From: Chloroflexota bacterium
GTDB taxonomy: Bacteria > Chloroflexota > Dehalococcoidia > UBA2247 > RBG-13-53-26
Direction: 5' to 3'
Length of the DNA stretch: 64,000 bases
Assembly (NCBI GenBank): GCA_016876035.1
Contig: VGOE01000001.1
Span: 27,264-91,263, forward strand
The notes beneath the pieces are model-generated. The model searched no databases. It was not told where the DNA came from and worked only from the letters and a program-made list of their open reading frames with translations. Positions 26,110 to 48,227 of this stretch are shown here, piece by piece; position 1 is the stretch's first letter, and every line of letters begins with the position of its first letter. A program made the translations under genes and the position numbers.

Positions 26110-26154
26110 TGGTAGCGGGGGTTGGATTTGAACCAACGGCCTTCGGGTTATGGG
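26110..26154 (-). repeat. 45-nt copy of the 3' half of the tRNA-Met at 48153-48227 (CCA end through the anticodon loop). It is a putative attL direct repeat.
   Basis: 26110-26154 is identical to 48153-48197 (tggtagcgggggttggatttgaaccaacggccttcgggttatggg). The sequences diverge afterwards. Confidence 0.75.
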
Positions 26155-26369
26155 TCTGGTGAGTATTGTCACAAGGGGTTATTTTACGTTCAAGCTGGAC
26201 ATAATGCATCAGGAGGCAGAATGTCGTTTTGTTCGTAAAATGCCGACCAGTGATAACCCGTTTCATTCCGTTGGTTAGCTTTTTGTTAGCTATTTTCTAG
26301 CTACGTTTTGAGCGTGAGACGATTTTCGTGAGACCCGGTTTGAAATGGTTCGGAGATACACCAGGTCGG

Positions 26370-27350
26370 TCAAGTAATGAAAACCTGAAGCTGTACAAGG
26401 CAGTGCTGTCCTGGGCGGCTGCTGTTGAGGGCAACTTCTGAGAGGGGATTGGGTTGTCGGGGGTCACATTTCCGAGTTTTGTGCAGCACTGCCAGCAGCA
26501 ACCGGTCCACACCCTGGGTCGAGTTGAAAGGCAGCTCATAGGCTGGATGAGCGAAACCCGGATTACAGAGTACCATGCCTCGCCTACAGGTGGCCGCCTT
26601 GACCGCCTCCCCCCTGGCAATCATTCCTTTGCTCAAAGAATCAATGTGGCTAGCTAGGCGGTTGTTAAAGGTACGTAACATGCTTGAGCGGCTGGCCTTG
26701 ATCATTCCCTCAAGCTCCGAAGCACTCACCGATGGCGCTGGCATCCCAAACGTCTTGGAGATGTTGGACAGGGCGGTGCGGTAGACAGTGACGGCATGAT
26801 CAGTAGAAACCCTGATGTCAGCCCCAAGCATACGGCCAGTTTTCATCAACTGGTAGAACGCCCTTTGCTGCTCAGACAGCTTGACCATCCCTGTACCAGC
26901 CCTTATGAGCCTATCGGCGTCTCCATAGTACCTTGCGAACCCAATTTGCCTCGATAAACTGCCGTTCATCCTCGAAAAAGCGTTGATAAAGGCTTCTTGA
27001 GAGGTGGAACCCAGCCGTAATAGCGACTTATCGGCACGGAACATCTTGCCAAAAGCCGACTGAATAGACTTGTTTTCAGCCCATACCTTCTGGCCGATAG
27101 CCTGCCTGACAACAGTGGCCCTCAGTCTTGGCGAGACAGAAGCGAGCTGGTCAGCATTGATGAAAAGCACGGATCCCTGGCGGAAATAGAGGTGATGGCC
27201 GCGGGAAATGTTGAAGAGTTCTTTTGAAGAGACTACCCGGATGCTGGTCAGCTCATTGGTGAAGCGTGGGTCCAGCCCTTTAAGGGCGGTGCGGATGGAC
27301 TCTGAGAATAGGCGGTTGGCTACAATTTCAGTCGATAGGAACGACTCCAT
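26370..27350 (-). CDS. Hypothetical protein (326 aa) with no recognisable motif.
   Basis: It is a long ORF with coding-like composition inside the island. It is overlapped at its 5' end by a 76-aa ORF. Confidence 0.45.
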   Translation of the reverse strand: MESFLSTEIVANRLFSESIRTALKGLDPRFTNELTSIRVVSSKELFNISRGHHLYFRQGSVLFINADQLASVSPRLRATVVRQAIGQKVWAENKSIQSAFGKMFRADKSLLRLGSTSQEAFINAFSRMNGSLSRQIGFARYYGDADRLIRAGTGMVKLSEQQRAFYQLMKTGRMLGADIRVSTDHAVTVYRTALSNISKTFGMPAPSVSASELEGMIKASRSSMLRTFNNRLASHIDSLSKGMIARGEAVKAATCRRGMVLCNPGFAHPAYELPFNSTQGVDRLLLAVLHKTRKCDPRQPNPLSEVALNSSRPGQHCLVQLQVFIT

Positions 27351-27558
27351 ACCCCGCCTCCTCCAACATGTCCACCACCCATGGTATGTAGTCCCTATCT
27401 CCAGGCTGGGAACGCCTCAGTATCCCAGCTTGATCGCCTTCCGGCATAATGACCTCTACACTGCCGATCCCCTGTAGAAAAGGGTTATCTGAGACGATCT
27501 TCCCGTCGTCGGTCAGCGTACCGAGGCGAACGTCCTCAACTACGATGTGGTAGGCCAT
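27328..27558 (-). CDS. Hypothetical small protein (76 aa) overlapping the start of the downstream gene.
   Basis: There is a 23-nt overlap with 26370..27350, which suggests a coupled pair. Confidence 0.3.
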   Translation of the reverse strand: MAYHIVVEDVRLGTLTDDGKIVSDNPFLQGIGSVEVIMPEGDQAGILRRSQPGDRDYIPWVVDMLEEAGYGVVPID

Positions 27559-27830
27559 CTGTGAGTACTATAGACACGACTATTACGTCTGTCAAGATGT
27601 GGTTCTGCTCGGTTGGAGTTGGCAAAGGCGGAAGAACCAAGAAGCGTCTACTCTGCATGGAGCTTTAGGCCTCGCCTTTACCCTTGCCATTTAGACCACT
27701 CTACATAGTTAAGGGATTGGGAACCCTCTGTCCAACTGGGATCACATTGTAACTCAGAAGTTGCAAGCAAACTGTCCCCCGCGCTACAATTGACCCGTAG
27801 AGCTTTTAGCAGGCTGAGAAGGGGGTAACT

Positions 27831-28271
27831 ATGAGCCTTTTGGCAGCACTTTCAGGGAAGTCCACATCCGATGAAGAAATTCTAAGTCAACTCAACGAGG
27901 CGGTGATGCAGCTGCAGGCGGATGCTCTAGGCAAGTTGGACGCTTTCGCACTCGGTAAGAAGGAGATTGAACAGAGCCGGCAGAACGTGATTCAGCTTCT
28001 TGAAATTCTCCAGGAACTTCTGTCCCAGACCGGTGACCTGCAATTCGTCATTCCAGATACACCTCAGGAGAGCGCAGCAAAGGATATAGTGCTGAAGCTC
28101 GAATATCGAGGTAGGCCGAGGGCTGACTGGCTCGAGGATATTCACTCAGCCATATCAAACTTGCGTGATAGCAAACCGCTATCTGATTCCGACTGGGTTT
28201 TATTAGAAGACATCGTAGATATACTGGATACAGAGCTTGCCGAAGACTTGAGGGAACTCAGCCGACAGTAA
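27831..28271 (+). CDS. Hypothetical coiled-coil protein (146 aa). It is translationally coupled to the next gene.
   Basis: A TAATG stop/start overlap occurs at 28269-28273. The composition is Leu/Glu/Gln-rich heptad-like. Confidence 0.45.
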   Translation: MSLLAALSGKSTSDEEILSQLNEAVMQLQADALGKLDAFALGKKEIEQSRQNVIQLLEILQELLSQTGDLQFVIPDTPQESAAKDIVLKLEYRGRPRADWLEDIHSAISNLRDSKPLSDSDWVLLEDIVDILDTELAEDLRELSRQ

Positions 28272-29443
28272 TGCGAGCGTATCTGAGGGCAAAGTGCGCA
28301 CAACTAGAAATTGAACTGAATCGGTTACAGGACTACATTGGCCAACAAGAACGGGATGCAACGCATCCCGTTCTTGTTTCTGATTTGAAAGACCACCTCT
28401 GCCAAATGCAGCGGCTGTGCCGACGGTTGTCCGCGATTGCTGAGAATCCCGATGCTGCTTTGTTGAAACGTGCTCATATGTACCTGAGAGATTACGCCTA
28501 TCTTCAGACATCTCTCAGAGTATGGTATCTCCCCGCATGCTTTTATGAAACGGATACGGATCGGCAATTTGGCAGAATCATACGGCACCTGAATAGTAGG
28601 CTTGGTGTGACGCCAATGGAAGACCTTATCGTATCCCACGGGCGCTTTTTCACTACCTTCCCTGGGATACTGAGAGCACCCATTTTCTACGTTCCCTTTG
28701 CTCAGCACCAGAGTCTTGGAGATCTTCCCGCTCTGTACCACGAAGTTGGGCATATTGTCTATCAACATAATCCGCTCTTCGCAACCGAACTCCAGGCAGT
28801 CGTGATCACCCACTACAGCGAGCTTGCGAGAAGAACTTCCCCTATTCCCAGTGTTCAGCAAGAAGAGCGTTTGAAAGCCCTTTCTTGGTGCGTTCAGTAC
28901 TGGAATTGGAGGAAGGCTATCCGAATACAAGAGCTGTTCTGTGATATTTTTGCAGCCAATGTCGTTGGTCCAGCCTTCATTTTCTCGTGGATAGACTTAG
29001 TTATGCGCCAAGCTGGAGAGCCATATCAGTACTCTGAATGCGACGAACATCCCCCGGATGGGTTCAGGGCAACAACCTGCTTCCAGGCGCTCCCAGCAGC
29101 ATGTCGGGATGCGCCACTAGTGGAATGGATGCAACAGGTGTTCACTCAGTATGTCAGCGGGAAACTTCAGCGGAGAGATCCGGTTCCCTACGCCATGCTG
29201 TGTTCAACCGAGCTTATGGAGAAATTGGTGAATAAGGTCAGCGAGCATCTGGAAAGGATTGGGGTACCGGTCTATGCAGGCCCGATCCCTGATCAGTCTC
29301 AGGCACAAGACTTTGCTGATGTGCTCGATCTTGAGGGACTACTTAATGCAGCAGTGGTGAAGCTGTTGGCTGACCCAAACGGCTATAATAGCTGGGAGTC
29401 CGAAATGGTCAGAAGACTCTATGCAGCGCTCCCAACAGCCTAA
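28271..29443 (+). CDS. Putative zinc metallopeptidase with HExxH-x4-H (HEVGHIVYQH). The family is unassigned and could be ImmA/IrrE-like or SprT-like.
   Basis: The motif is LPALYHEVGHIVYQHNP. The protein is 390 aa. Confidence 0.45.
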   Translation: MRAYLRAKCAQLEIELNRLQDYIGQQERDATHPVLVSDLKDHLCQMQRLCRRLSAIAENPDAALLKRAHMYLRDYAYLQTSLRVWYLPACFYETDTDRQFGRIIRHLNSRLGVTPMEDLIVSHGRFFTTFPGILRAPIFYVPFAQHQSLGDLPALYHEVGHIVYQHNPLFATELQAVVITHYSELARRTSPIPSVQQEERLKALSWCVQYWNWRKAIRIQELFCDIFAANVVGPAFIFSWIDLVMRQAGEPYQYSECDEHPPDGFRATTCFQALPAACRDAPLVEWMQQVFTQYVSGKLQRRDPVPYAMLCSTELMEKLVNKVSEHLERIGVPVYAGPIPDQSQAQDFADVLDLEGLLNAAVVKLLADPNGYNSWESEMVRRLYAALPTA

Positions 29444-31704
29444 TCCTCGTCTTTGAGTAGCGTTTCCCGCAGAAGTTCATCATCCCATCGAACGGTTACA
29501 GGCATACTAATGTCAATATCTGGGGCATTCCAGTTGAATTGAGTAAGGCGGAATACATCCTCAGCAACATGTCGGATGTCAAAAGCTCCGCTAGTCTGGG
29601 CCACGCTGACTAGCAATGTTCGGGCAGTTTTCCCCTGCTCGTCCCATTTCTCAGGCTTTCCTGTAGTCGTGATGATAGCTCGTCCCTCATCTAAGATGAG
29701 GTAGCAACCGGGGAACGGGTTCTGAAAGGTTGTTAGGTCATTTGGAGGCCCTGCAACGCTAAATATGCGCACCGGCAGATGTGTCTTACGAAGTTCCACA
29801 ATGGCATGCCTTACTGACCCACCGATGATGCCCTCTGATCGTAGTCGATTTAGGGCATCTTCGATACCCTCACTCTCCTTTGGCCATATGCGCCCGTCCC
29901 GATGAAATATAATACTTTCGAGGTGGAATCCCTGAGTCGCTATTTGCTTAACTGATGAAAGGAGTTCGTCTCGGATTCTCCTGGTCTTGATCGCTTCTTT
30001 TCCACCGCTACTACCTGTCCTCCGTCGCATCTCTCGGCCCCCCTTACCAAACAGGTATGTATAGACGACTCGTGAATCTTGAACGTCTATGCCAACATAT
30101 AGGTCCTGGTGAAGGAGATCAGCAAGAACCCAAGGCTTGCTTCCTGTTGCGATCAAAACACCAAGGGCTAGGTTGCGCAACTTGGATCTGTTAACGCAAA
30201 CCTCCTGGACATTCCCTTCATGAATACACTGAGAGAATACCGACCTGCATGTCTCTTTGAGGAGGGGATGGACCTGGCTGACGGCCTCTGACGGTAGTAC
30301 GCAAACCAGAAGAGCCCTCCGATGATCCCTCACAAGTGTTTCTGCCTCCGAGATCAGATTGCGTCCCTCTAGGTCAGGGGCGTAGGGAATCTGTCGCGAG
30401 AAGCTAAGATCCAGGCCAGATTGAAGCTTGACTTCAGTTACCAGCCTCTGCACAAATTCCTCTCTCAGCCGCCTGCTAAGCGTATTAGGGCAAAGCAGAA
30501 ATGCGACAGGGAGTGGCTCGGTGTGAAAGGGATGGCGCTCATAAAGAGCCTTAATCTTTGCAGGGCCCCAGTGGCGGATAGGATACGGCTCATTGGTGCG
30601 CTTTTGGAGGGCATCTATTCTGATGATGTGACCCTGACCAAATTCGAGCCCCGGCACTTGAAAGAAAGAGCCATCTATATGTAACGGCTCAAAGGACAAA
30701 TCTAGCGGAACATCCCCATAACAGACTTGCCCCAAGTCTTGAAGGAATTCAGATATTAGCTTCATCCGCACTTGCGGACTTAGCTGTGGGGGAATCGAGC
30801 ATTGTCGCAGGCCAATATGCTCTGTGGTAAATCTGGGGAAAAGGCGACTGACTGGGACAGGGAAGGGAGCCGTGCCACGCTCCTTATCCTGTACATAATA
30901 CACTGCCTCTTCATCAGGACTGAGGCTGCTACTGATCTGGGGGTACCGCCTGCGATAATACTCCAGCACTGTTTCGTTCAATTCCTCTAGCCAGAACTCC
31001 GCTATCGTTTGGCCTGTATCTCCAGCGTAAAAGCACCCAAACTTCACAGGCCCGTTGTCTCTTAAGAAGGCTCTTCTATGCTCCATCCGAACATCGCAGT
31101 GCTCGCGTAGCTGTTCCTCAAGCCCACGATCTCTATAGTCAAGCAAGGAGAGGCGGGATACATAGCGTGTCGCAACATCCACAGCAAGAAATAATCTTCC
31201 GCCTCGGATGGAAGTCACCCCAAAAGAGAACCCACGATATGCGTTTATGATGTCGGAAGCTTTGTCCTGATTATCCGGCGACACACGGAAAAATCGAGTC
31301 CAGGTGTCGCGCCAATAGTTAGGCTGATTTCGAAGTGTATCTGAAAAGGCGCGCTCCACCATGCTAGCGACAAACTCCAGATCTGCCCCGCTTGCTACTC
31401 GAAGGTCTACAGAAATGATCTCATCCGTGGGATCAACGTGGTAGGTCATATGAGGCACATCTTTGAAAGTGAGATCAGCATTAGTCATGTCGACGTCGGC
31501 TGGCATGATGAAATACGCGTCGGTGTCTCGTGACCGTGGAAAGACAGGGCACTTGAGGCGCCTCCTCCACATCTCATCTGCCCATTTCTGGACACGGACT
31601 GGTCTATAGTTATCATCAGGTAGCCGTTCTCGAACTTTGAGTAACCTGTACCTAAAATCGAGCTGCTGGGAATTTCGTATTTCGAACAGGGTGTATGCTA
31701 GCAC
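29440..31704 (-). CDS. Long prokaryotic Argonaute (pAgo) with a PIWI domain.
   Basis: PIWI-domain signatures are present. RALLVCVLPSE...ETCRSVFSQCI...NLALGVLIATGSKPWVL...LYVGIDVQD holds the first catalytic Asp in GIDV. IIFHRDGRI is the RDG motif. C-terminal AFDIRHVAEDVFRL parallels the YYAHLAAFRAR region with His. The length is 754 aa. The start overlaps the stop of the upstream nuclease gene. Confidence 0.7.
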   Translation of the reverse strand: MLAYTLFEIRNSQQLDFRYRLLKVRERLPDDNYRPVRVQKWADEMWRRRLKCPVFPRSRDTDAYFIMPADVDMTNADLTFKDVPHMTYHVDPTDEIISVDLRVASGADLEFVASMVERAFSDTLRNQPNYWRDTWTRFFRVSPDNQDKASDIINAYRGFSFGVTSIRGGRLFLAVDVATRYVSRLSLLDYRDRGLEEQLREHCDVRMEHRRAFLRDNGPVKFGCFYAGDTGQTIAEFWLEELNETVLEYYRRRYPQISSSLSPDEEAVYYVQDKERGTAPFPVPVSRLFPRFTTEHIGLRQCSIPPQLSPQVRMKLISEFLQDLGQVCYGDVPLDLSFEPLHIDGSFFQVPGLEFGQGHIIRIDALQKRTNEPYPIRHWGPAKIKALYERHPFHTEPLPVAFLLCPNTLSRRLREEFVQRLVTEVKLQSGLDLSFSRQIPYAPDLEGRNLISEAETLVRDHRRALLVCVLPSEAVSQVHPLLKETCRSVFSQCIHEGNVQEVCVNRSKLRNLALGVLIATGSKPWVLADLLHQDLYVGIDVQDSRVVYTYLFGKGGREMRRRTGSSGGKEAIKTRRIRDELLSSVKQIATQGFHLESIIFHRDGRIWPKESEGIEDALNRLRSEGIIGGSVRHAIVELRKTHLPVRIFSVAGPPNDLTTFQNPFPGCYLILDEGRAIITTTGKPEKWDEQGKTARTLLVSVAQTSGAFDIRHVAEDVFRLTQFNWNAPDIDISMPVTVRWDDELLRETLLKDED

Positions 31705-31705: not shown

Positions 31706-32641
31706 TCACCACTCCCTGCATATTCGCTGAAATGGGCAACGCTCGCAAATCTTCACATGCCGGGCATAGCTAAAATCCCGAATATCTGCCACGCCTGTAT
31801 CAGGATCAACCATGAGTGCGCTAATGTTTTCTACGCTTCTCCTGATAACTGCTAACCGGTTCCACTTAGCTTCGGGGTCCAACGTAAAAGCTTCAACCTG
31901 CGGAGTCTCCAAGTTAACGGCATACGCTGTGGTGTCCCTAAGCTCAATACTCAAAGCCAGGTGTGGCCAAAGAAGGTAGCACTCCATTTGCCCCGAATAA
32001 CTTCGTGCATCAGACTTCCCAGTCTTCCAGTCATAGATCGCAAATCGGCCATCGCTGTTTCGCACAGCAAGATCTACCTTAACTGTGACCTTTGTAGTCT
32101 CGAAGTCAAATGCTGTAGCCCCTGGCCCAAATGTCGGGGGCTCAATCCAAACCCGGTTAGCGGTGGCTAGAATCTGCGGAATCCTCAGGGTGTCCCGAAT
32201 GTCACCGAAATTGTCCAAGCAGGTTCTGATCGTAGTTAGTATCCTGCTGAAAGTATCAAGCGGTAGCTGGATTCCATATTCATGCTCAAAGATAGCACCA
32301 AACTCCTCTCCTGCTCTCGTTGGCGCAACTTGGCGGTAGAGTTTCCTCTCAGAAAAATTCCACTGGCGCTCTGCGAGGTCCGCAGCCTTTTCTCGAAGGT
32401 CTTCCACCGACCAACGATGCCCGTTTGCCAGTTCCTTCAGCGACTTTGCAACAGTGGTATGCAAAAGGTCACCGACCCACGCCGAGAGTGTTTTTAGTTG
32501 CCGCAGAATCGCCACCTCTTTCAACAAAGGCTTCCTTGAATTGCGACGCGCTCCAGCCAAGTAATGAAAGAATAGCTGTCGCTCGCAGACTTCTAGCAGG
32601 TTGCCTTTCGAATACGACCATGATCGCTTTGTCGAGTCCAT
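31706..32641 (-). CDS. Cas4/AddB-like PD-(D/E)xK nuclease with a 4-Cys iron-sulfur cluster motif. The start is taken at the internal Met because the longer ORF overlaps the upstream gene.
   Basis: The PD-(D/E)xK core is VKVDLAV...GRFAIYDWKTGK. C-terminal CERCPFQRIC (C-x2-C-x5-C) plus an N-terminal Cys (EVCERQ) match the Cas4/AddB Fe-S arrangement. It lies immediately upstream of pAgo. Confidence 0.7.
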   Translation of the reverse strand: MDSTKRSWSYSKGNLLEVCERQLFFHYLAGARRNSRKPLLKEVAILRQLKTLSAWVGDLLHTTVAKSLKELANGHRWSVEDLREKAADLAERQWNFSERKLYRQVAPTRAGEEFGAIFEHEYGIQLPLDTFSRILTTIRTCLDNFGDIRDTLRIPQILATANRVWIEPPTFGPGATAFDFETTKVTVKVDLAVRNSDGRFAIYDWKTGKSDARSYSGQMECYLLWPHLALSIELRDTTAYAVNLETPQVEAFTLDPEAKWNRLAVIRRSVENISALMVDPDTGVADIRDFSYARHVKICERCPFQRICREW

Positions 32642-32654
32642 AACGCTTGCTGTC

Positions 32655-40304: not shown

Positions 40305-40544
40305 TTGGAGGGAGAAAAGGCTATGACCCACATACCTATGCTTCTTAGCGAGCCTATTCCAAAAGTAAGGTGCCTCCAATGTGGTGAGGAATACGAGTAT
40401 GATCCTGTTGCAGGATGGGGTTGCCTCATACTGACAGATGAGAGGAATGCACCAACCGTCATTCTGGGAGTATGGTGCAGTAACAGCTGCCTTAACGAAT
40501 GGCTTAATAAGCCTCAAGCTAGGCGCTCACTGGTGTCTGAATAG
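40305..40544 (+). CDS. Small hypothetical Cys-rich protein (79 aa).
   Basis: CLQCGEEYEY...CSNSC is present. GGAG lies upstream of the ATG. Confidence 0.3.
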   Translation: MEGEKAMTHIPMLLSEPIPKVRCLQCGEEYEYDPVAGWGCLILTDERNAPTVILGVWCSNSCLNEWLNKPQARRSLVSE

Positions 40545-40986: not shown

Positions 40987-42132
40987 CTACCGCTCGTAGG
41001 AATAGCCCTTCACGTAGTTGTGGATGGTCGGTTTGCTCACGCCCATCATCTTGGCAATCTGCCCCATGGATAGCCCGCCATGGTGAAGCTCCCTTGCCTT
41101 CTGGATACGCTCCTCAAGGGTCATCCTCTTGGGCAGCTTCATTGCCGGAGGTTCTCCGCCGGCTGCAAAGGCATGGCTTAGTTTGGCGGTCCAGAATGTG
41201 GGCAAATCATTCTCCAGAAGCCCCATGAAGTCGGCATCTGGAGAGTAAACGTAGCTCCACCTTCTTCTTTCGCCCTTCACTGTGCCAAAGGCTTGTTTTG
41301 CCTGGGTCGCAATTCTAGCCAGTTCAGGCCTATCAAACTCTAGCTGAAGCATCCCCAAATCCTTGAATACCACCACGTTGGCAGAGCTAGCGATATTTCT
41401 ATCCACTTGGCGGGCTTCCTGGCTGACGAAGACAAGCGTCTGCTCCCTTTGGCGAGATAGATTTAGGATGCGGGACATCTCTCTGCTTCTAGCTGCTAGG
41501 CTCTCCCTGGAGTGATACCGCAGATAGGCTTCGTCCACAAGCACGATAGACTTCTGGGGGATGTCTTCGAAGCTTTCGGCAATGCCTATCCAGTCTGGGA
41601 GAAGCTTCTGGCCTTGCTTTGGAAGCCCAAGAACGTAAGGTGTCAGCACATATCTGCATAACTCCAACAGCCGATAGCCCAGGGCGGACTTACCACTGCC
41701 CCGCTTCCCTAAGATTAGCACCACGGAGGGGTGGGCGATAACCTCCCGCCATCTAGCATCGACCTCAATCTGGGCTTCAGTTCTAAGTGCTGGCGAAGTA
41801 ATGGTCTCGGTTTCCCCTGCTGGCTTGTTATCAATCTGTTTGAAGGCAAGTGACCAGGCTTCAAAAAGCCGGCGTTTACTTTCCTGCATCAATACCTCTT
41901 GGCACTGTCGCCATAGCTCTACCAGGAATGGCTCCAAGAAGGGTGAAGCAATGGCAAAAGTAATGCCTGCCTGGAGTCGCCTGCCTTGAGGGGCGACAGC
42001 GAGTCCCAATAGGCCCCACAGAGCAGCGGAGTAATAACCGTTGTCTGTCGGCTGATTACTGACCATTCCAATATGTCGCCGTCTCAAATGTGACATAATA
42101 GCCTCTGGGAGCCATTGTAAACGAAAAGTCAT
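40987..42132 (-). CDS. P-loop NTPase with a C-terminal helix-turn-helix. It may be a replication or partition-associated ATPase of the mobile element.
   Basis: Walker A is LILGKRGSGKSALG. Walker B is IVLVDEAYL. The C-terminal HTH is GLSMGQIAKMMGVSKPTIHNYV. Confidence 0.55.
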   Translation of the reverse strand: MTFRLQWLPEAIMSHLRRRHIGMVSNQPTDNGYYSAALWGLLGLAVAPQGRRLQAGITFAIASPFLEPFLVELWRQCQEVLMQESKRRLFEAWSLAFKQIDNKPAGETETITSPALRTEAQIEVDARWREVIAHPSVVLILGKRGSGKSALGYRLLELCRYVLTPYVLGLPKQGQKLLPDWIGIAESFEDIPQKSIVLVDEAYLRYHSRESLAARSREMSRILNLSRQREQTLVFVSQEARQVDRNIASSANVVVFKDLGMLQLEFDRPELARIATQAKQAFGTVKGERRRWSYVYSPDADFMGLLENDLPTFWTAKLSHAFAAGGEPPAMKLPKRMTLEERIQKARELHHGGLSMGQIAKMMGVSKPTIHNYVKGYSYER

Positions 42133-42359: not shown

Positions 42360-43040
42360 CTACCACCCAAAGTCCACCCCTTGTTGTACCCGCAGAGATT
42401 CCTCAGCTTGCAGGGTCTTGAAATACCTTAGTGTCATCCTGGCTGTTGTGTGCCGGAGCTGGTCCTGGACAGCCTTCGGATTGCCAGTCACCCTCAGTCT
42501 TTCTATAGCCCCGCTATGCCTCAGGATATGCACGGCCCCCACATGGTCGGGCTTAGTGACTCCGGCTTTAGCCATGGCTGCGTCAACAATCTGAAAGGCC
42601 CTGGTTCGGGTTATGGGAAAGAACTGCTCTTCGATATTGAGGCCGTGGCGGTAGGCATAGGCTTGCAGTTGCGCTGCAAGGCTAGATGATATGGCTGCTA
42701 TCCCGGGTTTCTTACCCTTACCGAAGATCTCCAGGTGCCAGCCGGTAGGATCCTGCTTTATATCCCTCGGCCTGACCCTTAATGCCTCGCTGATCCGCAG
42801 ACAAGCGTCAAAGAGTGTCTGTACCAACAGCCTGTCACGATCCTGGTGTCTGCCAGAACTGCCGGCGGCCTCAGCTATGGCCGTCACCTCAGCCAACCCC
42901 AGGTGCGGTACATAACCACTCTCAGCCACCTGTGCCCTGACAATTGCTTGCCTCTGAGCACTTTTGTTTAGCCTTGGAAGCCTTGGGGTCACCGCCACCA
43001 GGTTTGTTGACGACTGTGGTCTATCGCCACTGGCTGTCAT
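42360..43040 (-). CDS. Small tyrosine recombinase of the phage-integrase family (resolvase or Xer-like).
   Basis: The C-terminal catalytic region reads HILRHSGAIERL...LRHTTARMTLRYF (HxxR...Y). The protein is 226 aa. Confidence 0.65.
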   Translation of the reverse strand: MTASGDRPQSSTNLVAVTPRLPRLNKSAQRQAIVRAQVAESGYVPHLGLAEVTAIAEAAGSSGRHQDRDRLLVQTLFDACLRISEALRVRPRDIKQDPTGWHLEIFGKGKKPGIAAISSSLAAQLQAYAYRHGLNIEEQFFPITRTRAFQIVDAAMAKAGVTKPDHVGAVHILRHSGAIERLRVTGNPKAVQDQLRHTTARMTLRYFKTLQAEESLRVQQGVDFGW

Positions 43041-43267
43041 TGCTTAACCTTCTTGTCCCTTTTGATAACGTCCCTCAGTCTGAGCCTATGGGTTTTCAGG
43101 ATGCTGTATATATATCCCCGGCTACACCCTAACTCTTGGGCCGCTACCGTTACGCTTCCACACTTTCTCAGCTTGTCAAGAATGTTTTTGACAGGCACGT
43201 CCAGCCGTTTCCGTCCTAGACCACTTACCACCACTGTTTTGCCACAATGGGGACATTGGACGTTCAT
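43037..43267 (-). CDS. Small DNA-binding protein with an N-terminal Zn ribbon and a C-terminal HTH.
   Basis: The Zn ribbon is CPHCGK. The HTH is GSVTVAAQELGCSRGYIYSIL. It overlaps the recombinase start by 4 nt. Confidence 0.5.
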   Translation of the reverse strand: MNVQCPHCGKTVVVSGLGRKRLDVPVKNILDKLRKCGSVTVAAQELGCSRGYIYSILKTHRLRLRDVIKRDKKVKQ

Positions 43268-43299: not shown

Positions 43300-43480
43300 T
43301 CTTTACTGACACTTCATGCTTACCTAGCTTCTATATATACACTGACACTACTCTTGACACTTCACTGACACTTCACTGACAGTTTACTGACAGTTTGAAC
43401 TGTCAGTGTTTGGACTGACAATTGTCGGGGTATTCTTTAGCTTCAGTTCGTGCCTAAGTGTCAGTATGTCAGTAGTGTCA
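43300..43480. repeat. Iteron-like cluster of at least 9 direct and inverted copies of an ACTGACA/TGTCAGT core. It is a putative origin or integrase/repressor binding array.
   Basis: CACTTCACTGACA occurs twice. GTTTACTGACA, GTTTGAACTGTCAG and GGACTGACAAT are present. Downstream copies include GTGTCAGTATGTCAGTAGTGTCA. The cluster lies between the DUF3987-like gene and the HTH gene. Confidence 0.6.
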
Positions 43481-43486: not shown

Positions 43487-44722
43487 TTAGGTGGCCTGCA
43501 GCATCCTCTTCTTGCCCTCGTAGTGGTTTCTCAGTACCCCTAACCTGAGTAACGGCTCCACTGTTGTCTCCAGTTCTTTGGCGGCCAGATTCAGATTACG
43601 ATAGACATCGCGATACGGAACTAGACCCCCGGCACTCTTTACATATTCAACTATCCGCATCTCCTTCTGTTTGCTCTGCGACTGTCCGAAGTTGGCGAAT
43701 ACTTCAGTAACACCTGCTTCGAGGTACCCCCCTACCGCAATAGCCAGTTCTAGGTGATCTGCTGATATAACTTTTGACATGGCATCTGCGGCATAGAGTA
43801 GAGCTACCTTCCAGATGAAGTCCTGGACCCTGACAATGAGCGTAGGTATTAAGCCCGGCTGTTGGCAACGCCAGTAATACTGGCTGTAGTATCGCTCAAA
43901 GAGCGCCTCTGCCTCACTTGATATGGTTATCTCTCCATCAGGCACACCATCAGCCCATTGGCGGATCTCATTCAACCGTTCGACTACCTTTATGCGCTTC
44001 TCCGGGTCAACCTTTGGTGGATTGGGCATAGGGTCCTTTGGCAGCCCATAAAAGTAACACCAACGATTCGCAAAGCCGCCGTATATGTCCCGCTCGGTAA
44101 GTGCCTTTTGTAGCCAATCCTGTGTTGTACCAGCCGTGATAGACAGGAAAGGCTCTTTGGCTGGCTTGATGGGTTTTTGACGCACTTGTGCATTGAACAC
44201 GTCTGATGAATCATATAACTCGTTGAGGGCTGGAATAATGTTGGCCACTGACTCCTGTTTCGCTTTTGCCAACAAAGAATAGAACTCGCCAAGCTCTATG
44301 AGTCTAACCTTCCGCTCTCCGGCTAAATCGTCCAGCACCCCTTCGGAACTTCGAATGCCCCGAAGCACCTTGAATGGCGGACTTCCCTCATCTTCTGGGG
44401 ACAGGTGAAGCCTGTCTAATACGTCTCGGCCTCTTAACCATGTCGTATCTTTCCGAGTTATTCCACTTCTACCTACGAGACACGTATAGAAGTTTGGGTA
44501 AAGCTTACGTGCATGATAGACGAAAAGCCTTCGGCCTAGGGTACACCCAAAGACTTGAAGGAAAGTAGCATAGTGGAAAGCGTCCGCTGCTTCGGTAGTA
44601 TTCGCCACCATGTCTCGATAGTCTGCGAACAAGCCCCGCCATGAGATTTCTGGTAATTCTGGATTAGCGGTGATGGTGATTGGCCTTGAGATTGTCTTTT
44701 CCGTAATCGTAATCTCTGGCAT
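43487..44722 (-). CDS. Primase-associated replication protein, possibly a DUF3987-like helicase-loader domain.
   Basis: The 411 aa lie immediately downstream of the primase gene with a 2-nt gap. No Walker motif was seen, so the assignment is tentative. Confidence 0.4.
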   Translation of the reverse strand: MPEITITEKTISRPITITANPELPEISWRGLFADYRDMVANTTEAADAFHYATFLQVFGCTLGRRLFVYHARKLYPNFYTCLVGRSGITRKDTTWLRGRDVLDRLHLSPEDEGSPPFKVLRGIRSSEGVLDDLAGERKVRLIELGEFYSLLAKAKQESVANIIPALNELYDSSDVFNAQVRQKPIKPAKEPFLSITAGTTQDWLQKALTERDIYGGFANRWCYFYGLPKDPMPNPPKVDPEKRIKVVERLNEIRQWADGVPDGEITISSEAEALFERYYSQYYWRCQQPGLIPTLIVRVQDFIWKVALLYAADAMSKVISADHLELAIAVGGYLEAGVTEVFANFGQSQSKQKEMRIVEYVKSAGGLVPYRDVYRNLNLAAKELETTVEPLLRLGVLRNHYEGKKRMLQAT

Positions 44723-44724: not shown

Positions 44725-45672
44725 CTAGTCCCCCGTCAGCAGATCATCGAGTCCTTTGAACCTAGTATCCCAGTCCGCTTCAAAGGTGCGTAAACCGAAC
44801 CTAATGAGGAAAGCGGCCAGCGTGTCCAAGTGCAGACGTACGGTGGTGTTCCGGTTTTTATCTTCATCGAAGGCGATAACGATGCGTTTCGGCCTCAGTT
44901 GACGGACTATCGGTATCACGCCTCGCCAGTTCCCTACGCCTGGTACTGCCAATACCAGATGGCCCAACTTCAAAGCAGCGATGTCAGCTTTGAGTGGCCC
45001 TTCCGTAATCCACATTTCGCTATCATTGGAGACTAGCCCTGCCACATGAACCGGCGCTCCTGGCGAACACCCGGCGTTAAACCCTTTGCTTGATAGCCAC
45101 TTATATTTGCCGCCGCCTACCTCATCGCAACGTACTTGAAGCCCGACGATGCGCTTCTTTATATCTCGCACAGGTATCAGGATACCGACTGGCCCTGCCA
45201 ACTGACATTGTCCAGCTTCAAGGTAAAACCCGGGCACTCCTGCCAGTCTAACACTCCTAGTTTCAAGTCTTATGATCAACTTGCCTCGTCCGGTGGGCGG
45301 TAATGTTCTATAGCATAGGCTGTCAATCTGTGCGTCTGTTAAACCCCGGCGCTGCAAGCTAGCTCGGTGTATGGCTGATAGTTGTAACTCTTCTAGCAAA
45401 GCGTTATACGTCTTGTCTAACACGTCGGGCGCTGCTTTCGGTGTCTGTTTAGGGTCTGGTCTAAACGTAGGTAGTGGTGGCAATGGCATGGTTGCGTCCA
45501 GCTTGTGAAGCCAACCTGCGCCTTTGTTTCCGGCTGGCTTGTCGCTCTCAATCCTGGCACATATCGCGGCTTTTCCATCCCCGGATACGAGACACCAATC
45601 CGGCTTGCCGCAGACCGGACATGGGTTGTGCCGGTTAACCCTCACCCATTTTGAAACTATGGCGGCAGTCAT
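44725..45672 (-). CDS. DNA primase with an N-terminal zinc finger and a Toprim domain (P4-alpha or DnaG-like).
   Basis: The Zn finger is CPVCGKPDWC...AAIC. The Toprim acidic motifs are ITEGPLKADIAAL and RIVIAFDEDKN. Confidence 0.65.
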   Translation of the reverse strand: MTAAIVSKWVRVNRHNPCPVCGKPDWCLVSGDGKAAICARIESDKPAGNKGAGWLHKLDATMPLPPLPTFRPDPKQTPKAAPDVLDKTYNALLEELQLSAIHRASLQRRGLTDAQIDSLCYRTLPPTGRGKLIIRLETRSVRLAGVPGFYLEAGQCQLAGPVGILIPVRDIKKRIVGLQVRCDEVGGGKYKWLSSKGFNAGCSPGAPVHVAGLVSNDSEMWITEGPLKADIAALKLGHLVLAVPGVGNWRGVIPIVRQLRPKRIVIAFDEDKNRNTTVRLHLDTLAAFLIRFGLRTFEADWDTRFKGLDDLLTGD

Positions 45673-45920
45673 TAGCGGCCTACTTTTTCACTGCCCTGAT
45701 TAGCGCTATATCGCCTGAAGGTATCCTGTCTGTTGTGGTCTGGCACCAGGGTGGTCCGCCGCCGCTGACGGCACGGCTTGCAACGCTTTGGCTCAGATAA
45801 TGACTTGCTATGGAAATAGACTTGCTCTCCAGCCGTGAAAGTGAACTCCCGTCCACAATCACAGCAACGGAGAACCTTATCCCGGAAGTGAGGCTTTTTG
45901 CCGCCCGGCCTTTGCGTCAT
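45672..45920 (-). CDS. Small zinc-finger protein (82 aa).
   Basis: The motif is CCDCGREF...CKPCRQRR. Confidence 0.35.
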   Translation of the reverse strand: MTQRPGGKKPHFRDKVLRCCDCGREFTFTAGEQVYFHSKSLSEPKRCKPCRQRRRTTLVPDHNRQDTFRRYSANQGSEKVGR

Positions 45921-45951: not shown

Positions 45952-46155
45952 CTAATTGTTAGGCTTGCCAGCTTCAGCCAGCATTCGCTGAAGGGCGGCT
46001 TTAGGAATTACCAACCGCCGCTCCGATATTCGAATAACAGGTAGCTTCCCCTCCCGACACAAACTGTATGCAGTTGCCCTTGAAATCCCTAGAGCATCCG
46101 CCGCCTCGACTACCGTCATTGTCAGGCGTTCGCTCTCCTTCTTAGACATTCTCAC
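45952..46155 (-). CDS. xis: Excisionase/AlpA-family HTH DNA-binding protein.
   Basis: LTMTVVEAADALGISRATAYSLCREGKLPVIRISERRLVIPKAAL is a typical MerR-like excisionase HTH. Confidence 0.6.
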   Translation of the reverse strand: MRMSKKESERLTMTVVEAADALGISRATAYSLCREGKLPVIRISERRLVIPKAALQRMLAEAGKPNN

Positions 46156-46267
46156 AACCTCCTACTTGACAACTATCTCTAGTAGGAATTATAATTCTTA
46201 GTAACAGGACTGACAATGCCTAATGTAGGGACTAAGAGAAGCGACTGTTAGGAATAGAGGGATTAAG

Positions 46268-46939
46268 ATGGCAGTCAAGCGCAAACGAGCCAAGATTACA
46301 CATAAAGAAGAAACCATGATTCTTGACTACTCACGTAGGTTCCGCAAGTTGGGACGAACCCAATTGGCTGAAAAGATTCAGGCAGAAGTCAAATGGTCGG
46401 GCAAGCCTCCTGAAATAGAGGTATTGGAGAAAAAAATATCGAAGTATAGAAAAATTAATGACCCCGAGGAGGAACCCTGGGATATGTCTAAACTAGACAA
46501 GTATCCCATTCCGCCGGAAGCGCTACCCTCAGTGATACTGTGCTACGTCTATCGACTGGAACATGGCGACACCTTACTTACTGTCCGGGAAGCCAAGTGG
46601 GTTTCACGCATCTATGCTATTTGGAAAGACAAGGCAGAAGAGTATGTAAAAGCGCTCGATTATATCGCTTCGTTTCTCGCCCTGGGTGAAGTCAGCATGG
46701 AATTTATCGAAAGATCAAGCACCAGGAACAGAGATTTGGCAACTTTGCATAGCAACCTTCGCATGATGAACGTCATATGGCTTTACGGACAAATCACTAG
46801 AAAGCCGCCGAGTGAAGAGTTAGTAAGATGGATTAAGAACAAAATGGACGAGTGGCCGGAAGAGCTGAAGGCCCAATTTCCAGATTGGTTTAGGGAGGCA
46901 GATAATGAGAGGTCACATAATCAAGCGATACAAGAATAG
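46268..46939 (+). CDS. Hypothetical protein (223 aa) upstream of the integrase.
   Basis: An ORF with an RBS-like GGGATTAAG precedes the ATG. No motif was recognised. Confidence 0.45.
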   Translation: MAVKRKRAKITHKEETMILDYSRRFRKLGRTQLAEKIQAEVKWSGKPPEIEVLEKKISKYRKINDPEEEPWDMSKLDKYPIPPEALPSVILCYVYRLEHGDTLLTVREAKWVSRIYAIWKDKAEEYVKALDYIASFLALGEVSMEFIERSSTRNRDLATLHSNLRMMNVIWLYGQITRKPPSEELVRWIKNKMDEWPEELKAQFPDWFREADNERSHNQAIQE

Positions 46940-48082
46940 CTACACGATTGTCCTAACCCTCGGCTATGACCCGGCCACTGGCAAGCGTAGGCAGCAATGG
47001 GTTAGCGTCAAAGGGACTAAGAAGGATGCGGAGAAGCGCCTGGCGGAGCTCCTGCACCAGCTCGATACCGGCACCTTCATGAAGCCTGGCAAGACTACCC
47101 TGGCCGAATACCTGGAGCGATGGTTGAAGGACTACGCATGGCCTAATCTGTCCCCGAGGACCGCCGAGGGGTATGAACACATCGTCAGGCGTCACCTTAT
47201 CCCGGGTCTCGGCTCGATATCTCTGACACAGTTGAAGCCCGAACATCTCCAGCGCTACTACTCCGAGAAGCTATCAAGCGGCCGGTGTGATGGTAGGGGG
47301 GACTGAGCGCGAGAACAGTACGACATCATCACGTTACCCTGCATGATGCCCTGCAAACGGCTGTCAAGTGGGGATTGCTGGTCAGAAATCCGGCTGACGC
47401 AGTAGCCACCCCCCGCTTTCAGCCTCACGAGATGCACACTCTTTCCGAAGAAGATATTTACACTTTCCTTGAAGCCGCGAAGAAGACACCCTACTATGCC
47501 TTATTCTATCTGGCACTTTTCACCGGTATGAGGCGGTCTGAACTTCTGGCTCTGCAATGGTGTGACGTCGATCTGGCATTAGGTCAGGTATATGTTGCGC
47601 GTACTCTTCACCACCTGCGAAATGGAGGAATTGCCTTCAGAGCACCTAAAACAGCCAAAGGCCGCCGGACCATAGCTCTTCCACCGTCAGCTTGTATTGC
47701 TCTCAGAGCGCATAGGGAAGCACAGGAGGCAAGGCGAACCATGCTGGAGATCCCGCTGAGAGAGGATGAACTGGTTTTCTCTCAACTGGACGGTAGACCA
47801 CTACTTCCTGATACGGTAACCCATGCTTGGGTTAAACTGGTAAGGCGCACCGGCCTTCAGGGAATCCGATTACACGATGCCAGACACACCCATGCTTCCT
47901 TGATGCTGAAACAGGGTGTCCATCCCAAGATAGTTCAAGAGAGATTAGGCCATGCCAGCATACAGATAACCCTTGATACCTACTCCCATGTGGCCCCCGG
48001 GCTCCAAGCGGCTGCCGCTGTCCGATTTGACGAACTGCTGGCTCCCAAGCGTGACAAAGAGGTAGTTGAAAAAGTTGGTTAG
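46905..48082 (+). pseudogene. int: Tyrosine integrase (phage-integrase family) split into two frames by a roughly 14-nt insertion with stops near 47285-47300.
   Basis: The N-terminal SAM-like/core-binding part (46905..47306) reads ...EYLERWLKDYAW...LKPEHLQRYYSEKLSSGR. The catalytic part (47375..48082) reads RHHHVTLHDALQTAVKWGLLVRNPAD...LRHLRNG...HDARHTHASLML...LGHASIQITLDTYSHV (R..HxxR..Y). The continuation GGLSARTV is in frame 2 after tgtgatggtagggg. Confidence 0.6.
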
Positions 48083-48152
48083 CTATCCGTTAGCTAAAAT
48101 GAAAATGCCCCCAACTGGACGGGCCATATTGAGGGCATTTTAGCTTCAAAAA

Positions 48153-48227
48153 TGGTAGCGGGGGTTGGATTTGAACCAACGGCCTTCGGGTTATGGGCCC
48201 GACGAGCTACCACTGCTCCACCCCGCG
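48153..48227 (-). tRNA. tRNA-Met (anticodon CAU), initiator-type.
   Basis: The RNA reads CGCGGGGTGGAGCAGTGGTAGCTCGTCGGGCCCATAACCCGAAGGCCGTTGGTTCAAATCCAACCCCCGCTACCA. Positions 1:72 are mismatched (C:U). Three G:C pairs close the anticodon stem. The anticodon loop is CCCAUAA. A CCA end is encoded. Confidence 0.85.

What the first reader, a model, noticed from the sequence alone, without database searches (positions are those of the whole stretch)
26110..48227. Island of about 22 kb integrated into initiator tRNA-Met, bounded by a 45-nt tRNA 3'-half direct repeat
The 45 nt at 26110-26154 are identical to the 3' half of the intact tRNA at 48153-48227 (CCA end through the anticodon loop). This is the classical footprint of tyrosine-integrase-mediated insertion into a tRNA gene. 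The integrase gene abuts the intact tRNA. An excisionase-like HTH, a Zn-finger/Toprim primase, iterons and a small recombinase lie inside. The defence operon is therefore mobile cargo rather than core genome.
Basis: seen in the sequence. Interest (0 to 1): 0.6.

Follow-up and report, generated by a model that had tools for sequence, protein, structure and literature searches.

The report
Defence island inserted in initiator tRNA

Summary
The 45 nt at 26110-26154 exactly match the intact initiator tRNA-Met (48153-48227, minus strand), from the first base of the anticodon loop to the encoded CCA end. Chance expectation is 0.

- Five metagenome contigs from the nearest relatives (23S rRNA 95.3-95.4% identical) carry the empty site. 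Removing the island in silico gives a 333-nt collinear match at 90.7%.
- A contig from a related element carries the joined form (attP), with both island ends around the same 45 nt.
- GTTAGCTA arm-type sites lie at both island ends.
- No degenerate internal repeat exists.

The backbone is orf223-int facing xis-zf-primase-helicase, followed by iterons, an HTH gene and a small tyrosine recombinase. It recurs in other Chloroflexota contigs at other tRNAs with different cargo. The cargo here is a VbAgo-like Argonaute with a Cas4-like nuclease, plus a DUF499 ATPase/PglZ/DUF1156 methylase module, plus four unknown ORFs.

Amendments:
- The integrase is split by a 1-nt deletion in a poly-G tract, seen on 8 contigs drawn from at least four samples.
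- Composition does not differ from the host.
- The tRNA is the tail of the 23S rRNA transcription unit.

Verdict: a new member of a known kind.

The parts
26061..26103 (-). Native intrinsic terminator of the 23S-tRNA-fMet unit (host DNA, just outside the island), now 22 kb away from the tRNA
   Evidence: Hairpin of -26.6 kcal/mol followed by UUUUCCUUUU, z = -3.8. It is homologous, with changes on both sides of the stem, to the sequence directly 3' of the intact tRNA in L093, L094, L098, L101 and L104.
26110..26154 (-). Distal direct repeat: the displaced original 3' part of tRNA-fMet (positions 32-76), forming the att junction far from int
   Evidence: Exact 45-nt copy; 0 matches expected by chance. 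No tRNA is predicted here.
26155..26340 (+). Left arm of the element (P arm): TCTGGTG, ATTTTACGTTCAA (26181-26193), and three GTTAGCTA-like sites (26270-26303)
   Evidence: The same blocks are conserved next to the 45-nt core in the attP-like contig L095. The GTTAGCTA repeats were found.
26370..29443 (.). Four ORFs of unknown function: 26370-27350 (-), 27328-27558 (-), 27831-28271 (+), 28271-29443 (+)
   Evidence: No hit in Pfam, NCBIfam, PADLOC or PHROGs; the PDB was searched only for 26370-27350 and 28271-29443, with no significant match.
29440..31704 (-). Long prokaryotic Argonaute, VbAgo-like, with the DEDD catalytic tetrad retained
   Evidence: PADLOC pAgo_II, E = 4.7e-70. Full-length match to VbAgo, PDB 9v65, E = 3.9e-156. 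The VbAgo tetrad D550/E584/D617/D756 (PMC10448046) aligns to identical residues.
31706..32770 (-). Cas4-like PD-(D/E)XK nuclease partner of the Argonaute
   Evidence: Pfam PDDEXK_1, E = 3.9e-15. PADLOC Aga_Cas4-like_Nuc, E = 5.7e-33.
33055..35685 (-). DUF1156-type N6 DNA methyltransferase (HmaB-like)
   Evidence: Pfam N6_N4_Mtase and DUF1156. PADLOC HmaB, E = 6.3e-45.
36296..37243 (-). Standalone PglZ-like protein (315 aa)
   Evidence: Pfam PglZ 24.7 bits, just under the 25-bit cutoff. PADLOC PglZ, E = 8e-7.
37230..39821 (-). DUF499 AAA+ ATPase (HmaC / BrxC-like)
   Evidence: Pfam DUF499, E = 7e-12. PADLOC HmaC, E = 8e-19.
40987..42132 (-). ATPase with C-terminal helix-turn-helix; function unknown
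   Evidence: HTH families at residues 335-378 and a weak AAA_16 hit. A partial homologue (37% over 111 aa) lies in the related island L115.
42360..43040 (-). Small (226 aa) catalytic-domain-only tyrosine recombinase; inferred multimer resolvase
   Evidence: Pfam Phage_integrase, E = 1.4e-10. PHROG integrase, E = 5.7e-20. The R, K, HxxR, H and Y residues are visible in the translation. The role is inference.
43037..43267 (-). 76-aa HTH protein next to the iterons
   Evidence: Weak HTH_28 hit. A 54% identical homologue sits at the same position after the iterons in L116.
43300..43480 (.). Iterons (putative replication origin): 11-nt unit CACTGACACTT x4.7 at 43340-43392, further direct copies from 43303, inverted copies AGTGTCAGT at 43457-43480, and an AT-rich patch
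   Evidence: The same CTGACAC motif array lies directly 3' of the helicase gene in L116 and L118, whose helicases are 70-72% identical.
43487..44722 (-). DUF3987 replicative helicase (rep)
   Evidence: PHROG primase/helicase families, E = 1e-25 to 6e-17. Homologues are fused to Prim-Pol/PriCT or DnaB-N domains.
44725..45672 (-). DUF3854 primase-like protein (pri)
   Evidence: Pfam DUF3854, E = 4.8e-9. PHROG DNA primase, E = 8.6e-6.
45672..45920 (-). 82-aa treble-clef zinc-finger protein
   Evidence: Pfam zf_Tbcl, E = 1.2e-14.
45952..46149 (-). Excisionase-like HTH_17 protein (xis / AlpA-like)
   Evidence: Pfam HTH_17, E = 2.2e-13. PHROG excisionase families. Conserved next to int in L106-L109, L113, L115 and L118.
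46166..46216 (.). Overlapping divergent promoter-like sites between xis and orf223
   Evidence: 12/12 and 11/12 matches to TTGACA-N17/18-TATAAT on opposite strands. These are consensus matches only.
46268..46939 (+). orf223, unknown function; overlaps the int start and is presumably co-transcribed
   Evidence: No family hit. An ORF occupies the same position in L113, L115 and L118, with weak similarity only to L113.
46905..48082 (+). Tyrosine integrase with N-terminal arm-binding domain, split by a 1-nt deletion in a poly-G tract (47296-47301). N-terminal fragment is 46905-47306; the catalytic part reads from 47297.
   Evidence: Pfam Arm-DNA-bind_4 and Phage_int_SAM_3 in fragment 1; Phage_integrase, E = 5e-27, in fragment 2. 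Inserting one G restores 392 aa, the length of most of the best 120 homologues. The truncated product is encoded on 8 contigs.
48074..48145 (.). Right arm of the element (P' arm): two GTTAGCTA sites (48078, 48089), and an element-borne hairpin terminator (48092-48145) that now ends the tRNA transcript and the int gene
   Evidence: Hairpin of -24 kcal/mol followed by UUUUCAUUUU. The same layout is seen in L095 and L115.
48153..48227 (-). Intact initiator tRNA-Met; its 3' 45 nt (48153-48197) are the proximal direct repeat, supplied by the element
48255..51219 (-). 23S rRNA gene, 27 nt upstream of the tRNA (host context, not part of the island)
   Evidence: Rfam LSU_rRNA_bacteria, 2727 bits. The same 23S-tRNA-fMet linkage is seen in 11 related contigs.

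Best explanation
The segment 26155-48152 is a single integrative element. A lambda-type tyrosine integrase inserted it into the initiator tRNA-Met gene at the 3' end of the 23S rRNA transcription unit of a Dehalococcoidia bacterium. Recombination took place between a 45-nt core in the element (attP) and the identical stretch of the tRNA gene, from the anticodon loop to the CCA end. The element's copy now completes the tRNA. The original 3' part, still attached to the operon's own terminator, was pushed 22 kb away. The element brings its own hairpin terminator and GTTAGCTA arm-type sites on both sides of the core for the integrase's N-terminal arm-binding domain. It also brings an excisionase-like gene and a primase-helicase-iteron replication module with a small resolvase-like recombinase. 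It was therefore probably able to excise and replicate as a circle. About 13 kb is cargo: an Argonaute with a Cas4-like nuclease, a DUF499 ATPase/PglZ/DUF1156 methylase module, and four unknown ORFs. In this population the integrase has lost one G from a G7 tract and is split, so the island is most likely immobile unless the tract reverts or a related integrase acts in trans.

Shown here: the repeat, the empty site in relatives, an attP-like junction of a related element, the conserved arm sites and iterons, and the frameshift.

Inferred: the crossover mechanism, the roles of xis, pri, rep and the small recombinase, the terminator function, and the present immobility.
For: - Exact 45-nt repeat with chance expectation 0, and an intact initiator tRNA.
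- Empty site in the five closest relatives, including the homologous terminator and, in two of them, the homologous left-flank gene. The in-silico empty site aligns collinearly over 333 nt at 90.7%.
- L095 holds int 3' end, GTTGGTTAGCTATCCGTTAGCTAA, a hairpin, the identical 45 nt, TCTGGTG, ATTTTACGTTCAA and GTTGGCTAGCTAT..GTTAGCTATT. That is both island ends joined, as in attP.
- All three exact GTTAGCTA sites in 64 kb lie within about 130 nt of the island ends.
- The integrase has arm-binding, SAM-like and catalytic domains, and its catalytic residues read intact.
- Homologues 72-80% identical are mostly 392 aa. They sit next to tRNA-fMet-23S (L115), tRNA-Arg (L113), tRNA-Val (L106) and tRNA-Lys (L118) with different cargo.
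- The iterons 3' of rep are conserved in L116 and L118.
- No internal repeat remnant exists.
- The frameshifted product is encoded on 8 contigs; the four shown come from four different samples.
Against: - No empty site and no circular junction was found for this very element or population. The metagenome collection scanned seems not to hold this population's contigs, since the 45-mer scan returned none of them, so that negative is weak.
- Composition is indistinguishable from the host: tetranucleotide correlation 0.89 against 0.92 between the two flanks, and GC 52.1% against 53.3%.
- The integrase is frameshifted, so activity cannot be assumed.
- L095 could be the middle junction of a tandem array rather than a free circle.
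- The roles of the replication genes rest on family names only.
Confidence: 0.9

Rival explanations
1. The 45-nt copy is the remnant of a duplicated or decayed second tRNA gene, and the genes between the copies are ordinary chromosome. The integrase would be a bystander.
For: Composition of the segment is host-like. The integrase is broken.
Against: The nearest relatives have tRNA and terminator directly joined, with no 22-kb content. The DNA next to the orphan copy matches the left arm of an attP-like junction. The identity stops exactly at the anticodon loop. Arm sites flank both ends.
Confidence: 0.02
2. The island is still mobile. The G6 tract reverts to G7 by replication slippage (an on/off switch), or ribosomes slip -1 on the G run, or a related integrase in the same cell acts in trans.
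For: The frameshift lies in a poly-G tract that close relatives keep in frame (G6 in L113, G7 in L115). The rest of int and all other backbone genes look intact. The integrase family is very abundant in Chloroflexota, with more than 6000 homologues at E <= 1e-60.
Against: All 8 contigs read carry the shifted version. No intact copy close to this integrase exists among 5.8 billion proteins; the best hit is 80% identical. G_GGG_GAC is not a canonical slippery heptamer (from the sequence). No attB or attP junction of this element was found.
Confidence: 0.2
3. The element is a phage satellite of the PICI/SaPI or P4 type that needs a helper phage for transfer, with defence genes carried as satellite cargo.
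For: The layout int, xis/AlpA-like HTH, pri, rep and iteron origin directly 3' of rep is that of SaPI/PICI (own knowledge of those elements). It has divergent promoters between the int side and the xis side. It has no conjugation genes. Defence cargo is typical of satellites.
Against: No terS, capsid, portal, size-redirection or interference gene was detected in Pfam or PHROGs. At 22 kb it is larger than typical satellites. No relatives of rep or of the att core occur in IMG/VR. The small recombinase, or a serine resolvase in L118, next to the origin fits a plasmid-like episome equally well.
Confidence: 0.2
4. The 22 kb are a composite of two or more elements that entered the same site one after another. 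For example, a backbone element at 40-48 kb and a separately acquired defence block at 26-40 kb.
For: There are two tyrosine recombinases. A 1.1-kb gene-poor spacer at 39822-40986 separates cargo from backbone. The site is reused in relatives: L097 and L099 have orphan repeats.
Against: No internal copy of the repeat exists. The best internal match is 25/45, the same as shuffled sequence. The left end at 26155-26340 matches the P arm of the attP-like contig that also carries the int end, so both present ends belong to one element type.
Confidence: 0.1

Closest known systems
tRNA-integrated genomic islands and prophages made by lambda/P4-type tyrosine integrases, with the identity block running from the anticodon loop to the 3' end (own knowledge: Williams 2002 classification of sublocations in tRNA genes; not retrievable in the paper library)
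   Same: Integrase next to an intact tRNA, a direct repeat of the tRNA 3' part at the far end, arm-type sites, an excisionase-like gene, an empty site in relatives, and variable cargo.
   Different: The target is the initiator tRNA-Met, which here is the tail of the 23S rRNA unit. The host is an uncultured Dehalococcoidia bacterium. The integrase is frameshifted. Composition is host-like.
SaPI/PICI phage-inducible chromosomal islands, and P4-like satellites
   Same: The order int, xis/AlpA-like, primase, helicase, then an iteron origin immediately 3' of the helicase gene; divergent control region; defence genes as cargo.
   Different: No packaging or capsid-hijack genes were detected, the size is 22 kb, there is no evidence of a helper phage, and the element carries an extra small tyrosine recombinase.
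Dehalococcoides ssrA genomic islands (PMC3146451; PMC2764846)
   Same: Same bacterial class; site-specific islands with direct repeats at a single-copy small-RNA gene; cargo exchange between strains.
   Different: Those target the tmRNA gene and carry reductive dehalogenase operons. Here the target is tRNA-fMet and the cargo is defence genes. I did not compare the integrases.
Integrative plasmid-like elements such as actinomycete pSAM2-type AICEs (own knowledge)
   Same: tRNA-specific int/xis plus the element's own replication module, allowing an episomal phase.
   Different: No transfer (Tra/FtsK-like) gene was detected, and the replication proteins belong to different families.
Cargo 1: VbAgo, a DNA-guided RNA-cleaving long Argonaute (PMC10448046; PDB 9v65)
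   Same: Full-length homology (E = 3.9e-156) with the DEDD tetrad conserved.
   Different: Here it is adjacent to a Cas4-like nuclease gene and located on a mobile island. Activity is untested.
Cargo 2: Type-3 'BR' DUF499-centred BREX-related systems, also called Hma (PMC12839542)
   Same: DUF499 ATPase, N6 methylase with DUF1156, and a standalone PglZ, all in one co-directional array.
   Different: No helicase gene (BrxHII-like / HmaA) is present anywhere in the island. An iSTAND component was not identified.

Membership tests
tRNA-integrated genomic island (tyrosine-integrase type) | Intact tRNA at one end and a direct repeat of its 3' part at the other | tested here: met
   45/45 nt identical at 26110-26154 and 48153-48197; 0 expected by chance.
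tRNA-integrated genomic island (tyrosine-integrase type) | Tyrosine recombinase gene next to the tRNA-proximal junction | tested here: met
   Arm-binding, SAM-like and catalytic domains at 46905-48082, ending 70 nt from the tRNA.
tRNA-integrated genomic island (tyrosine-integrase type) | Integrase reading frame intact (needed for autonomous mobility, not for having integrated) | tested here: not met
   A 1-nt deletion in the poly-G tract at 47296-47301, reproduced on 8 contigs.
tRNA-integrated genomic island (tyrosine-integrase type) | Unoccupied site in related genomes | tested here: met
   L093, L094, L098, L101 and L104 (23S 95.3-95.4% identical) have tRNA directly joined to the homologous terminator; the match is collinear over 333 nt.
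tRNA-integrated genomic island (tyrosine-integrase type) | Joined ends (attP) detectable as a circle or tandem | tested here: inconclusive
   Found for a related element (L095).
tRNA-integrated genomic island (tyrosine-integrase type) | Atypical base composition (common but not required) | tested here: not met
   Tetranucleotide correlation 0.89 against 0.92 flank-to-flank; GC 52.1% against 53.3%.
PICI/SaPI-like phage satellite | int, xis/AlpA-like, pri-rep and an iteron origin 3' of rep | tested here: met
PICI/SaPI-like phage satellite | Packaging or capsid-redirection genes (terS, ppi, cpm, sid/psu, or capsid genes) | tested here: not met
   No such family in Pfam or PHROGs for any island ORF. 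There are only weak HTH-level hits to terminase profiles in the 381-aa ATPase. Several ORFs remain unassigned, so absence is not proven.
PICI/SaPI-like phage satellite | Induction and packaging by a helper phage | not testable with these tools
   Needs experiments or virus-particle metagenomes. IMG/VR holds no match to the att core, the arm motif or rep.
Integrative conjugative or mobilisable element | Relaxase, coupling protein or type IV secretion genes | tested here: not met
   None among the Pfam hits of the island ORFs.
Prophage | Capsid, terminase, portal and tail genes | tested here: not met
   PHROGs gives only integration, excision and replication categories.
Type-3 BR (DUF499-centred BREX-related) defence system (cargo) | DUF499 ATPase, N6 methylase and standalone PglZ | tested here: met
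   The PglZ hit is weak (24.7 bits; PADLOC E = 8e-7). The definition comes from PMC12839542.
Type-3 BR (DUF499-centred BREX-related) defence system (cargo) | BrxHII-like helicase in the core locus | tested here: not met
   No helicase domain in any ORF of 29-40 kb.
Catalytically active long pAgo (cargo) | PIWI domain with a complete DEDX tetrad | tested here: met
   In the alignment to VbAgo, D, E, D and D are all conserved (tetrad positions from PMC10448046).

The most novel reading that the evidence does not exclude
The backbone found here recurs across uncultured Chloroflexota at different tRNAs with different defence cargo. It consists of orfX-int facing xis-primase-helicase, followed by a CTGACAC iteron origin. 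It may define a so far undescribed family of helper-dependent, satellite-like or plasmid-like 'defence shuttles' in a phylum where no such elements are known. The poly-G tract in the integrase would act as a reversible on/off switch that locks useful islands in place.
Probability: 0.15. Interest if true: 0.6.

Novelty: new member of a known kind. Interest (0 to 1): 0.3.

Why it matters
It shows that the Argonaute and BREX-related genes in this Dehalococcoidia genome are horizontally acquired cargo, not core genome. It gives a fully mapped att system (core, both arms, empty site and a joined form) for an abundant but unstudied integrase family of Chloroflexota. That could help annotate islands in metagenome-assembled genomes and could serve as an integration tool for a group with no genetics. 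Biologically it is an expected kind of element. The less common points are the target (the initiator tRNA at the tail of the 23S rRNA unit, with the element replacing the operon terminator by its own) and the fixed poly-G frameshift in the integrase.

Tried and rejected
- An exact scan of JGI metagenome contigs for the predicted empty-site junction of this very strain gave 0 hits. That collection seems not to hold the source population, because the 45-mer scan returned none of its contigs. The negative is therefore weak.
- A scan of genome contigs with the left-flank beta-propeller protein found best relatives only 55% identical, with no tRNA nearby. Synteny is lost at that distance.
- Exact-protein look-ups of flank genes (MM_CoA mutase, hicB, the 311-aa ORF) returned only island-bearing or truncated contigs. 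No empty site turned up in the same population. Logan contigs simply break inside the 45-nt repeat.
- Look-ups of the 773-aa ORF version, the Cas4-like nuclease and P0147 found no record.
- GC and tetranucleotide analysis gave no island signal.
- IMG/VR scans for the att core, the arm motif and the helicase found nothing. Integrase relatives there share only int and xis.
- A search for the far repeat of related islands L113, L115, L118 and L106 found none within the fetched 10 kb, so their sizes are unknown.
- The unknown ORFs have no hit in Pfam, NCBIfam, PADLOC or PHROGs; the three tried against the PDB sequences (26370-27350, 28271-29443, orf223) matched nothing significant.
- My by-eye impression that the L099 287-aa ORF is TIR-like was not supported by Pfam, and I dropped it.
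- Programmed -1 frameshifting in int was considered and judged unlikely, because there is no canonical slippery heptamer.
- Literature searches for islands in initiator tRNA genes found nothing specific.

Full report
**Observation.** The window holds one tRNA gene, tRNA-Met(CAT) at 48153-48227 on the minus strand (ARAGORN; Rfam 62.6 bits).
- Read directly, it has the hallmarks of a bacterial initiator: an unpaired 1:72 position (C1xU72), A11:U24, and three G:C pairs at the bottom of the anticodon stem.
- The 45 nt at 26110-26154 are identical to 48153-48197. With up to three mismatches allowed these are the only two matches in 64 kb, and no shuffle gave any.
- In tRNA terms the block runs from the first base of the anticodon loop to the encoded CCA end. 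Identity then drops (TCTGGTGAG against CCCGACGAG).

**Host context.**
- A complete 23S rRNA gene (48255-51219, minus strand) ends 27 nt upstream of the tRNA, so the tRNA is the tail of the 23S unit.
- The flanks match contigs from several JGI and Logan metagenomes at 99.97-100% identity.
- The best database relatives of the left-flank gene are Dehalococcoidia MAGs.
- Immediately outside the distal repeat lies a strong hairpin followed by a U-run (26061-26103, -26.6 kcal/mol).

**Empty site.** A scan of metagenome contigs for the 45-mer gave 13 contigs.
- Eleven have an intact tRNA-fMet, each directly downstream of a 23S gene.
- Five of them (L093, L094, L098, L101, L104) have the 23S most similar to the window, at 95.3-95.4% identity.
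- In these five the sequence immediately 3' of the intact tRNA is homologous to window 26048-26109, including the terminator hairpin with changes on both sides of the stem.
- L101 and L098 go on into a homologue of the window's left-flank beta-propeller anti-sigma gene, at 72% and 58% aa identity.
- Deleting 26155-48197 in silico yields a sequence that aligns to these contigs as one 333-nt segment at 90.7% identity across the junction.

**Joined ends.** Contig L095 (activated sludge, 1.2 kb) has no tRNA. In order it contains:
- the 3' end of a related integrase gene;
- the 24-nt motif GTTGGTTAGCTATCCGTTAGCTAA, identical to window 48074-48097;
- a hairpin;
- the identical 45 nt;
- blocks that match the window's island left end: TCTGGTG, ATTTTACGTTCAA, TGATAAC.CGTTTCA, GTTGGYTAGCT..GTTAGCTATT and TGAGCGTGAG.

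This is the arrangement expected for attP, either as an excised circle or as the middle junction of a tandem pair. It shows that 26155-26340 belongs to the element. L097 carries an orphan 45-mer next to a host DegV gene. L099 carries an orphan copy 1.44 kb from an intact tRNA. So the site is used repeatedly in this clade.

**Integration machinery.**
- The gene next to the tRNA encodes an arm-binding domain, a SAM-like domain and a tyrosine-recombinase catalytic domain.
- All three exact GTTAGCTA sites of the window lie within about 130 nt of the island ends, with near-copies beside them. The same sites are conserved in L095, L115 and L106. I read them as arm-type sites (inference).
- Between the right-hand sites and the tRNA, the element carries its own hairpin plus U-run (48092-48145, -24 kcal/mol). 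An equivalent hairpin of different sequence is present in L095 and L115. The element thus replaces the operon terminator that it displaces (inference).
- An HTH_17 excisionase-like gene (45952-46149) is transcribed away from orf223-int. Two near-perfect divergent promoter-like sites lie between them.

**The integrase is broken.**
- The ORF stops at 47306 and resumes in another frame from 47297. Inserting one G into the run at 47296-47301 restores a 392-aa protein with the R, K, HxxR, H and Y residues.
- Most of the best 120 homologues (72-80% identical) are 392 aa, the rest 384-415 aa.
- Close relatives encode the same K/R-G-G motif with in-frame G6 or G7 tracts.
- The truncated 133-aa product is encoded on 8 contigs; the four shown come from four samples and two assembly pipelines, so this is not a sequencing error.
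- No intact version close to this integrase is in the protein collection.
- The rest of the backbone appears intact, so the lesion looks recent.

**Replication module.**
- Downstream of xis lie a treble-clef zinc-finger ORF, a DUF3854 primase-like gene and a DUF3987 helicase.
- The helicase's homologues are often fused to Prim-Pol/PriCT or DnaB-N domains.
- Directly 3' of the helicase gene is an array of CTGACAC iterons in direct and inverted orientation, with an AT-rich patch (43300-43480).
- The same motif array follows the helicase gene in L116 and L118, whose helicases are 70-72% identical.
- Then come a 76-aa HTH protein and a 226-aa catalytic-domain-only tyrosine recombinase with all catalytic residues. 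I infer this recombinase resolves multimers. An ATPase-HTH protein follows.
- L118 has the same backbone (orfX-int facing xis-pri-rep-iterons) at tRNA-Lys with MmeI-type restriction cargo.
- L115 has the integrase at tRNA-fMet-23S with Ku and ligase. L113 is at tRNA-Arg with a methylase and a histidine kinase-like ATPase.
- This is the pattern of a modular element family with exchangeable cargo.

**Cargo.** One co-directional array from 39821 down to 29440 encodes:
- a DUF499 ATPase, a standalone PglZ-like protein, two small ORFs, a DUF1156 N6 methylase and a small ORF;
- then a Cas4-like PD-(D/E)XK nuclease and a long Argonaute.

The Argonaute is a full-length homologue of VbAgo (E = 3.9e-156) and keeps its DEDD tetrad. 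The first three proteins fit the Type-3 'BR' BREX-related systems described in PMC12839542, except that no helicase gene is present. Four ORFs at 26370-29443 match nothing.

**What it is not.**
- No capsid, terminase, tail, relaxase or secretion genes were found. It is not a recognisable prophage or conjugative element.
- The layout resembles SaPI/PICI satellites, but the defining packaging functions were not found and the size is 22 kb.
- There is no internal remnant of the repeat, so a tandem composite is unlikely.
- Composition gives no signal. That fits a donor from the same bacterial class, or long residence.

**Verdict.** The added value here is:
- the empty site;
- the attP-like junction;
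- the arm sites;
- the conserved origin;
- the element family;
- the identity of the cargo;
- the broken integrase.

It is a new member of a well-known kind of element, and interest is modest.

Noticed in passing
window 48153-48227 (tRNA), also L093-L105: The initiator tRNA of this clade has C at position 33 (anticodon loop CCCAUAA) instead of the near-universal U33, and C1xU72 rather than C1xA72. The same sequence occurs in 11 related contigs. The more distant L115 has U33.
   Followed up: partly
window 48228-51219: The 23S rRNA is followed after 27 nt by tRNA-fMet, and no 5S rRNA gene is present in the window. The 23S-tRNA-fMet linkage is conserved in all 11 related contigs.
   Followed up: partly
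L099 1393-2954: An orphan 45-nt repeat and the intact tRNA lie only 1.44 kb apart, and each is preceded by the same ~70-nt terminator sequence. Between them is one 287-aa ORF with no Pfam hit. This could be a mini-island or the remnant of one.
   Followed up: partly
window 47296-47301; L113, L115: The integrase frameshift sits in a poly-G tract that close relatives keep in frame (G6 or G7). Such a tract is slippage-prone and could in principle switch the gene on and off.
   Followed up: partly
window 26370-29443: Four island ORFs (326, 76, 146 and 390 aa) have no match in Pfam, NCBIfam, PADLOC or PHROGs (PDB tried for the 326- and 390-aa ORFs only). They sit beside known defence genes and may be an undescribed system.
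   Followed up: partly
window 33055-39821: The DUF499 ATPase, standalone PglZ and DUF1156 methylase array lacks the helicase that defines the published Hma / Type-3 BR systems. It is either a helicase-less variant or a degraded copy.
   Followed up: partly
window 25744-26010: A solitary HicB-like antitoxin gene lies between the beta-propeller gene and the native terminator, with no HicA partner found. Most of it is absent from the empty-site relative L101.
   Followed up: no
window 39822-40986: A 1.1-kb gene-poor spacer separates cargo from backbone. It holds two small plus-strand ORFs; one (40323-40544) has four Cys in a zinc-ribbon-like pattern. Neither has a family hit, and no Rfam match at gathering score lies anywhere in the island.
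   Followed up: partly
L116 5100-7823; L118 20356-21260: Relatives of the pri-rep backbone lie next to other defence-type genes: nSTAND/Mrr_cat in L116 and an MmeI-type methylase-endonuclease in L118. This suggests the family often carries defence cargo.
   Followed up: partly
window 22281-25546: The host left flank encodes an ECF sigma factor, a small zf-HC2 anti-sigma protein, and a 752-aa zf-HC2 plus beta-propeller protein. Homologues of the latter in the genome collection are mostly in archaeal MAGs (Bathyarchaeia, Thermoplasmatota) at 40-55% identity.
   Followed up: no
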